Source: a virus. From it: a DNA stretch of 64,000 bases. The position numbers and the translations under genes are program-made. Below the pieces are notes generated by a model. It worked only from the letters and a program-made list of their open reading frames with translations, did no database searches and was not told the origin of the DNA. How positions within the stretch are numbered: the stretch's first letter is position 1; each line of letters begins with the position of its first letter. The DNA lies in the IMG/VR virus record IMGVR_UViG_3300022696_000071, positions 41,748 through 105,747 of that record. The stretch is one strand, 5' to 3'. This document shows positions 32,476 through 32,582 of this stretch, piece after piece.

Positions 32476-32582
32476 TGGTGCGTTATCACTATATAACAAT
32501 GGGTTAATTCCCATAACAGTAATCCACTAAATGGATTCTACTGTCGTCGCATCGCGACTGTTGCAATAGCAATAACGCACCA
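32476..32582. ncRNA. candidate structured RNA: 11-bp closing stem TGGTGCGTTAT/ATAACGCACCA enclosing three hairpins
   Basis: Perfect 11-bp inverted repeat ~85 nt apart. Internal hairpins ATGGG-TTAATTC-CCAT, ATCCA-CTAAA-TGGAT (flanked by CAGTA/TACTG) and GTCGC-ATC-GCGAC. Intergenic, between the tRNA array and the divergent gene at 32686. Confidence 0.3.

What the first reader, a model, noticed from the sequence alone, without database searches (positions are those of the whole stretch)
32476..32582. 107-nt cloverleaf-like structured element closed by a perfect 11-bp stem in the intergenic region beside the tRNA array
TGGTGCGTTAT...ATAACGCACCA closes three internal hairpins, one of which has a T-arm-like 7-nt loop. 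An 11-bp GC-containing perfect stem is highly unexpected by chance in 28% GC DNA. The architecture (long terminal stem plus internal stem-loops) resembles Y RNAs or other stable ncRNAs, and it lies ~2 kb from the Ro60-like gene. Alternatively it could be a recombination site (att-like) or a regulatory attenuator for the divergent gene at 32686.
Basis: seen in the sequence. Interest (0 to 1): 0.55.

Follow-up and report, generated by a model that had tools for sequence, protein, structure and literature searches.

The report
Orphan cloverleaf RNA beside phage Ro60 array
A real, unusually stable 107-base cloverleaf-shaped element sits at the head of a phage array of tRNA-like "Y RNA-like" genes next to a hidden Ro60-type gene, but it belongs to none of the known or locally conserved RNA families and has no relatives in any database searched, so its role remains inferred.

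Summary
Bases 32476-32582 fold into a four-way junction closed by a perfect 11-bp stem, which extends to 17 bp on the minus strand through two G-U pairs. The fold is far more stable than shuffles (z -7.4 to -8.2). It is the most stable stem-closed segment of the 64-kb window and a 41% GC island in 19% GC spacer.

The "Ro60-like" neighbour is real. The 541-aa protein has no Pfam hit, but its AlphaFold model matches only Ro60/TROVE structures, and an ARPP gene always follows it.

The Y-RNA reading of this element is not established.
- It fails the Rfam YrlA and tRNA models.
- It lacks the GNCGAA motif.
- It is not matched by a covariance model I built from the RNAs that accompany this Ro60 clade in 30 other phage loci. 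That model does find the neighbouring "tRNA-Lys" and "tRNA-Phe" cassettes at E~1e-15.
- A weak YrlA-like RNA lies at 31917-32023 instead.

No homologue of the element was found in 83 related loci, viral contigs, genomes or metagenomes, so covariation is untestable.

Best reading: a minus-strand accessory small RNA heading the array (confidence about 0.4). Attenuator and att-site readings have no support.

The parts
32476..32582 (-). The 107-nt element: a four-way junction with 44 bp (18 G-C, 22 A-U, 4 G-U on the - strand)
32566..32582 (-). 5' arm of the closing stem (UGGUGCGUUAUUGCUAU).
   Evidence: (I6)
32476..32492 (-). 3' arm of the closing stem (AUAGUGAUAACGCACCA). It reads as a 7-bp GCGUUAU/AUAACGC helix followed by A-CCA, an acceptor-like end whose ACCA is paired with the 5' UGGU.
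   Evidence: read from the sequence
32546..32558 (-). Hairpin H1, GUCGC-GAU-GCGAC (5 bp, 3-nt loop)
32515..32545 (-). Hairpin H2: 13 bp with a GA bulge and a UUA loop. Its 3' strand carries GAUUACUGUU, which resembles the cassette 3' flank (weak similarity).
   Evidence: the PSSM did not rank it
32499..32514 (-). Hairpin H3, AUGGG-AAUUAA-CCCAU. The stem is identical to the T stem of the tRNA-Phe-like gene; the loop is not a T loop.
32495..32498 (-). UGUU, which pairs with AACA (32559-32562). This is the 4-bp helix at the junction, separated from the closing stem by the internal loop UGC/AU.
32586..32622 (-). 16-17 bp hairpin with a UUG loop, 3 nt upstream of the element on the - strand (-13.7 kcal/mol, z -4.5). 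Its 3' strand is the best non-training match in the window to the 3'-flank motif of the RNA cassettes, so it looks like an 'empty cassette'.
32466..32475 (-). UUAAUUUUUU directly 3' of the closing stem on the - strand. It could be a terminator tail or a single-stranded 3' tail (inferred).
32631..32659 (-). Weak sigma-70-like promoter candidate, TTGTCC-17-TATATA. It would start transcription at the base of the hairpin. It falls below the scan tool's threshold.
   Evidence: read from the sequence
32258..32423 (-). Context: the 'tRNA-Lys(UUU)' cassette, a tRNA-like core with a short acceptor stem inside a bipartite flank stem with GACU...UUACAG
   Evidence: R2 98.1 bits, E 7.6e-16
32014..32176 (-). 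Context: the 'tRNA-Phe(GAA)' cassette, same architecture
   Evidence: R2 96.3 bits, E 1.6e-15
31888..32030 (-). Context: unit D, a circularly permuted tRNA-like core in the same flank stem. It is a weak Rfam YrlA match (31917-32023, 26.6 bits, E 0.007).
28788..30413 (-). Context: divergent Ro60-like gene (alpha-helical repeat domain plus vWA domain with DxSxS)
27742..28785 (-). Context: ARPP-1/ARPP-2 gene, the invariable downstream partner of the Ro60-like gene

Best explanation
The element is the DNA copy of a small structured RNA made from the minus strand, the strand of the neighbouring tRNA-like genes and of the Ro60-like gene. It is the first folded module of the leftward non-coding RNA array.

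The RNA forms a rigid four-way junction. A 17-bp terminal helix ends in an acceptor-like ...GC-ACCA and is followed by a U-rich tail. A 4-bp junction helix and three hairpins sit in the positions of the D, anticodon and T arms of a tRNA. A 37-nt hairpin derived from the cassette flank stems precedes it.

I infer that it is an accessory RNA of the phage Ro60-like/ARPP ribonucleoprotein system. It would be a tRNA-shaped, Y-RNA-like scaffold or decoy, bound through its long terminal helix and 3' tail. It is not a member of the conserved partner RNA families.

Shown: the structure, its statistical excess, its position, the Ro60-like fold of the neighbouring protein, and the Y-like nature of the adjacent RNAs.
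Inferred: the transcription, the strand, the transcript ends and any binding to Ro60.
For: Structure:
- z is -7.4 to -8.2 and it is the best stem-closed segment in 64 kb.
- It is a GC island, 41% against 19% in the spacer, as expected of structured RNA genes in AT-rich genomes.
- It holds no ORF.

Strand:
- Four G-U pairs exist only on the - strand, including an internal tandem UG/GU that turns 11+4 bp into 17 continuous bp. The - strand MFE is 5.4 kcal/mol lower.
- It is co-oriented with every RNA gene of the array and with the Ro60-like gene, 2.06 kb upstream of it. Bacterial and phage Y RNAs lie within 4 kb on the same strand as Ro60 (PMC4201824).
- A U-run directly follows the stem on the - strand.
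- A TTGTCC-17-TATATA motif would start transcription at the preceding hairpin.

Context:
- The neighbouring protein has the Ro60 fold.
- 74 of 83 loci of this protein family carry co-oriented tRNA(-like) genes.
- The flanking-stem RNA family is supported by covariation: 91.8% of cells paired, 28 of 30 pairs with double changes, 0 of 500 shuffles reach it, slid controls 40-50%.
- That family's model finds the two cassettes next to the element.
- The hairpin beside the element carries the cassette 3'-flank motif.
- H3 has the same stem as the T stem of the Phe-like gene, and the spacing D-arm/1 nt/anticodon-arm and T-arm/0 nt/junction helix is tRNA-like (sequence).
- All three characterised bacterial Ro60 species carry at least two Y RNAs, and only one of them is tRNA-like.
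Against: - There is no transcript evidence.
- No homologue exists anywhere, so no covariation can be counted: (only chance matches).
- None of the other 83 loci of this Ro60 clade has an analogous element, so it is not a required component of the system.
- It fails the YrlA, tRNA and R2 models and lacks both the GNCGAA motif and the RRACU...UUACAG hallmark.
- The strand evidence is modest. Four transitions falling on one strand has a chance of roughly 1 in 8.
- The 6-nt loop UUAAUU on the + strand looks slightly more T-loop-like than AAUUAA.
- No promoter passes the scan threshold on either strand.
- U-runs are common in 19% GC spacer.
Confidence: 0.4

Rival explanations
1. It is an independent phage small stable RNA that merely lives in the tRNA cluster, like T4 rnaC and rnaD. 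Its function would be unrelated to the Ro60-like system.
For: The T4 tRNA cluster carries two annotated small stable RNAs of unknown function. The element is absent from all other Ro60-clade loci. The stem plus U-run could end a short separate transcript.
Against: The adjacent hairpin carries the cassette flank motif, and H3 shares the Phe-like T stem, which ties it to the array. T4 rnaC is a T-arm-bearing tRNA-like RNA and this element is not.
Confidence: 0.2
2. It is a cis-acting RNA structure of the array transcript with no trans function. It could be a 5' protective or processing structure (for example an RNase III or RNase P substrate) or a terminator/insulator in front of the first cassette.
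For: It sits at the extreme 5' end of the leftward unit. Its long near-perfect helices (17 bp, then 4 bp, stackable on the 13-bp H2) are the kind double-strand RNases cut. The 7 bp + ACCA end resembles an RNase P/CCA substrate. A U-run follows.
Against: Other arrays of this family start directly from a promoter without such an element (L057 TTGACA-17-TAATAAT). A three-hairpin junction is more elaborate than a terminator or processing stem needs.
Confidence: 0.13
3. It is a plus-strand RNA. Either it is a degenerate YrlA-like permuted tRNA mimic (T-like arm first) or it is a leader/attenuator for ORF 32686.
For: On the + strand the first hairpin reads AUGGG-UUAAUU-CCCAU, one base short of a UUCAAUU T loop. 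The order T-like arm, long hairpin, short hairpin mimics the YrlA order. The + strand z is -8.2. The element lies 104 nt upstream of ORF 32686.
Against: - Four helix positions become C-A mismatches and the energy is 5.4 kcal/mol worse.
- This is the opposite strand to the Ro60-like gene and to every other RNA gene.
- There is no YrlA hit on either strand.
- No + strand promoter lies upstream of the element, and the only TATAAT (32633-32638) is downstream of it.
- The loop cannot form a T loop.
Confidence: 0.1
4. It acts at the DNA level. It could be a cruciform or single-strand initiation signal, a replication-origin element or a recombination site in the AT-rich divergent spacer.
For: Both DNA strands fold with z about -8. 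It is a GC-richer palindromic block inside a 19% GC spacer between divergent transcription units, a common setting for origins.
Against: - A branched cloverleaf cannot extrude like a simple cruciform.
- There are no iterons and no repeated copy in the window.
- No matching sequence exists in bacterial genomes, as an att site would need.
- The phage looks like a large lytic myovirus.
- The G-T-only asymmetry points to a single functional strand.
Confidence: 0.1
5. It is a non-functional by-product: a decayed or rearranged tRNA-like cassette, or a recent palindromic duplication.
For: It is an orphan and is absent from all related loci. H3 and the neighbouring hairpin look derived from array sequences.
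Against: Forty-four pairs with no disruptive mismatch, and every non-Watson-Crick pair being G-U on one strand, is not what decay produces. A simple inverted duplication gives one long hairpin, not a four-way junction.
Confidence: 0.07

Closest known systems
Bacterial/phage Y RNAs (YrlA, Rfam RF02553; YrlB/Yrn2-type second Y RNAs; Chen et al. 2014, PMC4201824)
   Same: It is encoded about 2 kb upstream of, and probably on the same strand as, a Ro60-type gene. The 5' and 3' ends pair in a long terminal stem. It has a tRNA-shaped branched core. It sits among other Y-like RNAs, and each characterised species has several Y RNAs.
   Different: - There is no GNCGAA(N0-1)G motif and no T-loop or D-loop consensus.
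- There is no hit to RF02553 at E<=10.
- The terminal helix is perfect, without the bulged Ro-binding helix.
- The Ro60-like protein is itself so divergent that Pfam TROVE does not detect it.
The tRNA-in-flank-stem RNAs of this Ro60-like/ARPP clade
   Same: Same array, same strand and the same general plan. A long stem formed by the distal 5' and 3' segments leads through an internal loop and a 4-5 bp junction helix to three arms. The neighbouring hairpin carries their 3'-flank motif.
   Different: It lacks the conserved RRACU and U(U/A)(A/U)CAG elements and the tRNA core sequence. R2 scores it at most 10 bits, with the core deleted from the alignment. No other locus has it.
tRNA (RF00005)
   Same: It has cloverleaf topology. 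A 7-bp terminal helix is followed by A-CCA. One nucleotide separates the first and second arms and none separates the third arm from the junction helix. The H3 stem equals the Phe-like T stem.
   Different: It is not detected by ARAGORN or Rfam. It is 107 nt long. It has 3-nt and 6-nt loops in place of the D and T loops, a 13-bp 'anticodon' arm with a 3-nt loop, and the acceptor helix is prolonged to 17 bp.
Small stable RNAs of phage tRNA clusters (T4 rnaC/species 1 and rnaD/species 2)
   Same: They are small non-tRNA structured RNAs of unknown function encoded inside a phage tRNA gene cluster.
   Different: T4 rnaC keeps a canonical T arm next to an acceptor-like stem, and rnaD is not unusually stable, z -0.8. 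There is no sequence relation. That the T4 RNAs are processed with the tRNAs is from my memory, not tested here.

Membership tests
Y RNA / YrlA (RF02553) | Encoded within about 4 kb of a Ro60 orthologue, on the same strand | tested here: met
   The Ro60 fold of the 541-aa protein is shown. The element lies 2.06 kb upstream of its start. It shares the strand only if the - strand is the sense strand, which favour but do not prove.
Y RNA / YrlA (RF02553) | GNCGAA(N0-1)G (bacterial) or GGUCCGA (animal) Ro-binding motif near the 5' end | tested here: not met
   Reading both strands finds no such motif. The nearest is UGGUGCGU.
Y RNA / YrlA (RF02553) | tRNA-like module (T arm, acceptor-like stem-loop, D arm) recognised by the covariance model | tested here: not met
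   There is no RF02553 hit at E<=10 in 31000-33500. By contrast unit D scores 26.6 bits and the L057 units 27-37 bits.
Y RNA / YrlA (RF02553) | Physical association with the Ro60 protein | not testable with these tools
   This needs immunoprecipitation or CLIP.
tRNA (RF00005) | Cloverleaf with conserved D and T loops, a 7-nt anticodon loop and 70-95 nt length | tested here: not met
   ARAGORN finds only Phe and Lys. There is no RF00005 hit on the element at E<=10. The loops are 3, 3 and 6 nt.
   R2 finds the Lys cassette (98 bits), the Phe cassette (96 bits) and unit F (41 bits) but not the element. With filters off on 32420-32660 the best score is 10.3 bits, with the core deleted.
Intrinsic terminator / transcription attenuator | Stem immediately followed by a U-run, placed within a transcript upstream of the regulated gene | tested here: inconclusive
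   On the - strand the closing stem is followed by UUAAUUUUUU, but the 'hairpin' is a 107-nt branched structure and the scan does not call it. For ORF 32686 (+) the element lies upstream of the only good -10 box.
Phage attachment / recombination site | Identical core sequence in a host genome (often in a tRNA gene) and a nearby integrase | tested here: not met
   There are 0 matches in 185,579 species genomes for two patterns. No integrase was seen among the ORFs examined, but not every ORF of the window was scanned.

The most novel reading that the evidence does not exclude
The element is a new, non-tRNA-like class of Ro60 partner RNA: a four-way-junction 'Y RNA' with an acceptor-like ACCA end. 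It would belong to a previously unrecognised phage Ro60-like/ARPP ribonucleoprotein system, whose other RNAs are tRNA mimics clamped in conserved stems. It could, for example, act as a decoy or a tether for a host tRNA-binding enzyme.
Probability: 0.2. Interest if true: 0.7.

Novelty: new variant of a known kind. Interest (0 to 1): 0.5.

Why it matters
Ro60 and its Y RNAs are a conserved RNA quality-control machine, and their bacterial and phage versions are still poorly understood.

This window shows a Ro60-type protein that sequence profiles miss. It is always paired with an ARPP enzyme of unknown function and always next to tRNA-like RNAs held in a conserved, covarying stem. This occurs in more than 80 mostly large phage contigs, and no cultured phage in GenBank carries it.

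The 107-nt element is an extra RNA-like module unique to this phage. If it is transcribed and bound by the Ro60-like protein, the range of shapes a Y RNA can take would widen. It would also give a compact, very stable handle for pulling down the complex.

If it is not, it is still a clean example of an orphan structured element, and the real interest lies in its neighbours.

Tried and rejected
- **Rfam.** At gathering thresholds and at E<=10 the element has no hit.
- **Single-sequence model R1.** Searched over 1.05 Mb of 83 related loci, and with filters off over the 7 closest plus L143, it found only plain hairpins matching the closing stem.
- **Structure-descriptor scan.** Upstream regions of all related loci were scanned for stem-closed elements with at least three hairpins. 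Only tRNA-like cassettes and GC-rich coding segments came up.
- **Exact-pattern scans.** Viral contigs gave 0 and genome contigs gave 0. Metagenome contigs gave 23 hits, all unrelated. Nineteen belong to one family of long palindromes from a few related samples that shares only the 11-mer arms, and four are singletons, about the number expected by chance.
- **Recovering the source contig or a sister contig.** Exact look-ups with four proteins of the window found nothing on record.
- **Neighbouring genes as anchors.** The 218-aa protein and the 541-aa protein as single sequences have no close relatives in viral contigs. The 428-aa protein has one 30% homologue, whose contig (L143) is syntenic on the right arm but has no RNA array.
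- **Cassette-flank pattern in viral contigs.** Hits were at chance level only.
- **9-bp inverted repeat** ATTTGTCCT (32436-32444) / AGGACAAAT (32653-32661) around the element. Rejected, because 204 such pairs occur at that spacing in the window.
- **Flank-motif pair at 35819-35760 (-).** It does not fold, z -0.45, so it is chance.
- **H2 as a paralogue of the flank stems.** The resemblance is visible by eye but not ranked by the PSSM, so I keep it only as a weak remark.
- **Literature search for T4 stable RNAs.** It returned nothing useful.

Full report
**1. The observation.**
Both strands fold into the same four-way junction. A terminal stem leads through a small internal loop to a 4-bp helix (AACA/UGUU), from which three hairpins emerge with no unpaired junction bases.

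The RNA minimum free energy is -43.4 kcal/mol on the + strand (z -8.16) and -48.8 on the - strand (z -7.42). No shuffle out of 200 folds as well, and the centroid equals the MFE structure. DNA parameters give z about -8 on both strands.

An 11-bp perfect stem alone is not remarkable in this AT-rich window. Eight occur at 50-130 nt spacing, against 4.2 +/- 2.1 in shuffles. One with at least 5 G/C is rare, at 0.04 per shuffle.

What is exceptional is the whole fold. Among all segments closed by a perfect stem of at least 9 bp, it has the best energy per nucleotide in the 64 kb, ahead of the tRNA-like genes. It has 44 pairs and is 41% GC, inside a spacer that is otherwise 19% GC. No ORF crosses it.

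The 'T-arm-like 7-nt loop' is really a 6-nt loop (UUAAUU/AAUUAA) that cannot form a T loop. Its stem AUGGG/CCCAU is the same as the T stem of the adjacent Phe-like gene.

**2. Strand.**
On the - strand a tandem U-G/G-U joins the 11-bp and 4-bp helices into 17 continuous pairs. Two more G-U pairs lengthen the middle hairpin. On the + strand these four positions are C-A mismatches.

The - strand is also the strand of all neighbouring RNA genes and of the Ro60-like gene. On that strand the closing stem is followed at once by UUAAUUUUUU. A TTGTCC-17-TATATA motif would start a transcript at the base of the hairpin that precedes the element. That motif is below the scan tool's threshold, and the tool reports no promoter for the element on either strand.

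I take the - strand as the more likely sense strand, at roughly 2:1. This is inference.

**3. Surroundings.**
The window is a large myovirus-type phage with a major head protein, tail sheath, baseplate proteins and a DnaB-like helicase.

The 541-aa protein at 28788-30413 (-) has no Pfam or PDB sequence match. Its family alignment shows a C-terminal DxSxS vWA motif. An AlphaFold model (pLDDT 87.6, pTM 0.82) matches Ro60, Rsr, a TROVE domain and the Thermus phage phiLo Ro60 as its ten best PDB hits, over the full length, with Foldseek probability 1.0.

An ARPP-1/ARPP-2 gene follows it here. The same holds in every related locus tested, 3 metagenome and 9 viral loci. This pairing is not among the ARPP neighbourhoods listed in PMC9503650.

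Of 83 related loci, 74 carry co-oriented tRNA or tRNA-like genes within 3 kb upstream or 4.5 kb downstream of the gene start. In GenBank phages only one unannotated 462-kb uncultured phage encodes the protein.

**4. The array.**
Reading the - strand from 32625 to 30449 gives, in order:
- a 37-nt hairpin;
- the 107-nt element;
- a 'tRNA-Lys' cassette;
- a cassette with a roughly 50-nt non-tRNA cargo;
- a 'tRNA-Phe' cassette;
- a circularly permuted tRNA-like unit, which is the only Rfam YrlA hit (31917-32023, 26.6 bits, E 0.007);
- two tRNA-like RNAs with an acceptor stem, a T arm, an encoded NCCA end and a large internal insert (31734-31876 and 30449-30587).

Each cassette cargo sits inside a bipartite stem made by a 5' flank (GGnnnAG-ACUUnAAAAUCAU-UACAG) and a 3' flank (ACC-AUGAUUUUnAnG-AUUACU-nnnCC). 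Paralogues show compensatory differences.

The same design recurs in other loci. I aligned 36 units from 30 loci (A3). On that alignment, 91.8% of the cells of my six-helix structure are paired and 28 of 30 pairs show double changes. No shuffle out of 500 reaches the observed values, and slid controls pair at 40-50%.

A covariance model built only from those foreign units (R2) finds three units in the window:
- the Lys cassette at 98.1 bits (E 7.6e-16);
- the Phe cassette at 96.3 bits (E 1.6e-15);
- the unit upstream of the Ro60-like gene at 40.6 bits.

The 'tRNAs' have only 4-5 bp of acceptor stem. Rfam aligns model positions 4-67 and 3-68. They are therefore tRNA mimics clamped in a stem rather than ordinary tRNA genes.

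In the closest locus (L057) the units are permuted and hit Rfam YrlA at 27-37 bits, with E from 3e-6 to 3e-3, below the family's gathering score. These are the credible Y-RNA-like partners of this Ro60 clade.

**5. Is the element one of them?**
No membership test is met.
- Rfam gives no hit at E<=10 on either strand, and ARAGORN finds nothing.
- Neither the bacterial GNCGAA(N0-1)G motif nor the clade's RRACU...UUACAG hallmark is present.
- R2 does not report it. With filters off on a 241-nt slice it gives at most 10 bits, with the core deleted from the alignment.

What links it to the array is circumstantial.
- The hairpin 3 nt upstream (32586-32622, z -4.5) carries the best non-training match in the window to the 3'-flank motif, and looks like a cassette without cargo.
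- H3 shares the Phe-like T stem.
- Its plan parallels the cassette plan: long terminal stem, internal loop, 4-bp helix, three arms, with a 73-nt tRNA-sized core.
- Its terminal helix reads as 7 bp plus A-CCA. The two tRNA-like RNAs E and F also encode NCCA, whereas the Lys and Phe units do not.

**6. Homologues.**
None was found.
- The single-sequence model finds only itself in 1.05 Mb of related loci. With filters off it finds only simple hairpins in the closest loci.
- A structure-based scan of all upstream regions finds no comparable junction.
- Exact-pattern scans of viral contigs and species genomes return nothing.
- The 23 metagenome matches are an unrelated palindrome family plus chance singletons.
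- The source contig and any sister contig are not retrievable.
- The only homologue of the neighbouring 428-aa gene lies in a phage without the RNA module.

The element is an orphan and is not a required part of the Ro60-like system.

**7. Interpretation.**
The most economical account is that the element encodes a minus-strand structured small RNA at the head of the array. It would be an accessory, tRNA-shaped, Y-RNA-like scaffold or decoy for the Ro60-like/ARPP system. Its long terminal helix and U-rich 3' tail are the kind of feature Ro60 proteins grip; that property is from my general knowledge of Ro60-RNA structures, not tested here.

I put this at about 0.4. The rivals, in order:
- an unrelated stable RNA of the tRNA cluster, like T4 rnaC/rnaD: 0.2;
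- a purely cis-acting 5' structure or terminator: 0.13;
- a plus-strand RNA or leader of ORF 32686: 0.1;
- a DNA-level element: 0.1;
- a non-functional by-product: 0.07.

**8. Verdict.**
The element is a real, statistically outstanding, probably RNA-level structure. The Ro60 context is confirmed, but Y-RNA identity is not. The more significant finding lies next door: a divergent Ro60-like/ARPP gene pair with a conserved, covarying family of stem-clamped tRNA mimics. Interest for the element itself is moderate at 0.5.

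Noticed in passing
window 28788-30413 (-) and 27742-28785 (-): The 541-aa protein has no Pfam or PDB sequence hit, but its predicted fold is Ro60 (alpha-helical repeat ring plus vWA domain with DxSxS). It belongs to a family of at least 93 proteins and 104 viral-contig loci. An ARPP-1 gene directly followed it in all 13 loci checked. This gene pair is not among the ARPP contexts described in PMC9503650.
   Followed up: yes
window 32258-32423 (-) and 32014-32176 (-); related loci aligned in A3: The genes ARAGORN calls tRNA-Lys(UUU) and tRNA-Phe(GAA) have only 4-5 bp acceptor stems. 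They are clamped in a conserved bipartite flank stem with RRACU and U(U/A)(A/U)CAG motifs. The same architecture, with covariation, occurs in 30 other phage loci, and a model built from those loci finds both at E~1e-15.
   Followed up: yes
window 31888-32030 (-), core 31917-32023: This is a circularly permuted tRNA-like unit inside the same flank stem. In order it has a T arm, an acceptor 3' strand, a loop, an acceptor 5' strand, a D arm and a UGA-loop hairpin. It is a weak Rfam YrlA hit (26.6 bits, E 0.007). Analogous units in L057 3900-5000 score 27-37 bits. It is the best YrlA-type candidate in the window.
   Followed up: partly
window 31734-31876 (-) and 30449-30587 (-); also L002 1363-1511, L001 7132-7258, and L067/L080/L099/L100/L107/L112 upstream of their cassettes: This is a second conserved RNA type. 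It has a 7-bp acceptor stem, a canonical T arm and an encoded NCCA end. The D-arm region is replaced by a roughly 60-nt insert that contains the GACU...UUACAG module. An anticodon-like hairpin is present, with loops holding GUA and CAU in the window. T4 rnaC has a similar acceptor plus T-arm end.
   Followed up: partly
window 32170-32272 (-): This cassette has the standard flank stem but a roughly 50-nt cargo that is not tRNA-like: two small hairpins, with z -4.2 for the whole unit. I did not search other loci for a counterpart.
   Followed up: no
window 32586-32622: A 16-17 bp hairpin with a UUG loop sits beside the element. Its 3' strand (ATGATTTTATAGTTACA) is the best non-training match to the cassette 3'-flank motif. 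It fits the 'long hairpin with small pyrimidine-rich loop' that Chen et al. 2014 describe for second Y RNAs. On the + strand it overlaps the -35 region of the TATAAT at 32633-32638.
   Followed up: partly
window 63369-63503: This is the only other perfect stem of at least 11 bp with at least 5 G/C in the window. It closes a 135-nt branched fold (-42.2 kcal/mol on the - strand) inside the 1921-aa tail/lysin ORF (58234-63999, -).
   Followed up: no
window 27630-27738: A roughly 23-bp hairpin (-35.5 kcal/mol) lies between the convergent genes 26672-27574 (+) and 27742-28785 (-). It is probably a bidirectional terminator.
   Followed up: no
L120-L142 (metagenome contigs Ga0123352-54, Ga0131853, Ga0136643): A family of long (over 200 bp), near-perfect palindromes with variable centres shares the 11-mer arms TGGTGCGTTAT/ATAACGCACCA with the element, apparently by chance. 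Its nature is unknown; it could be a foldback element or an assembly artefact.
   Followed up: no
related loci L066-L119, 0.5-2.9 kb upstream of the Ro60-like gene: Most loci carry a tRNA-Met(CAU) about 110 nt downstream of the stem-clamped tRNA mimic. The mimic's own anticodon varies freely between loci: Asp, Lys, Leu, Ser, Cys, Thr, Ala, even stop and SeC calls.
   Followed up: partly
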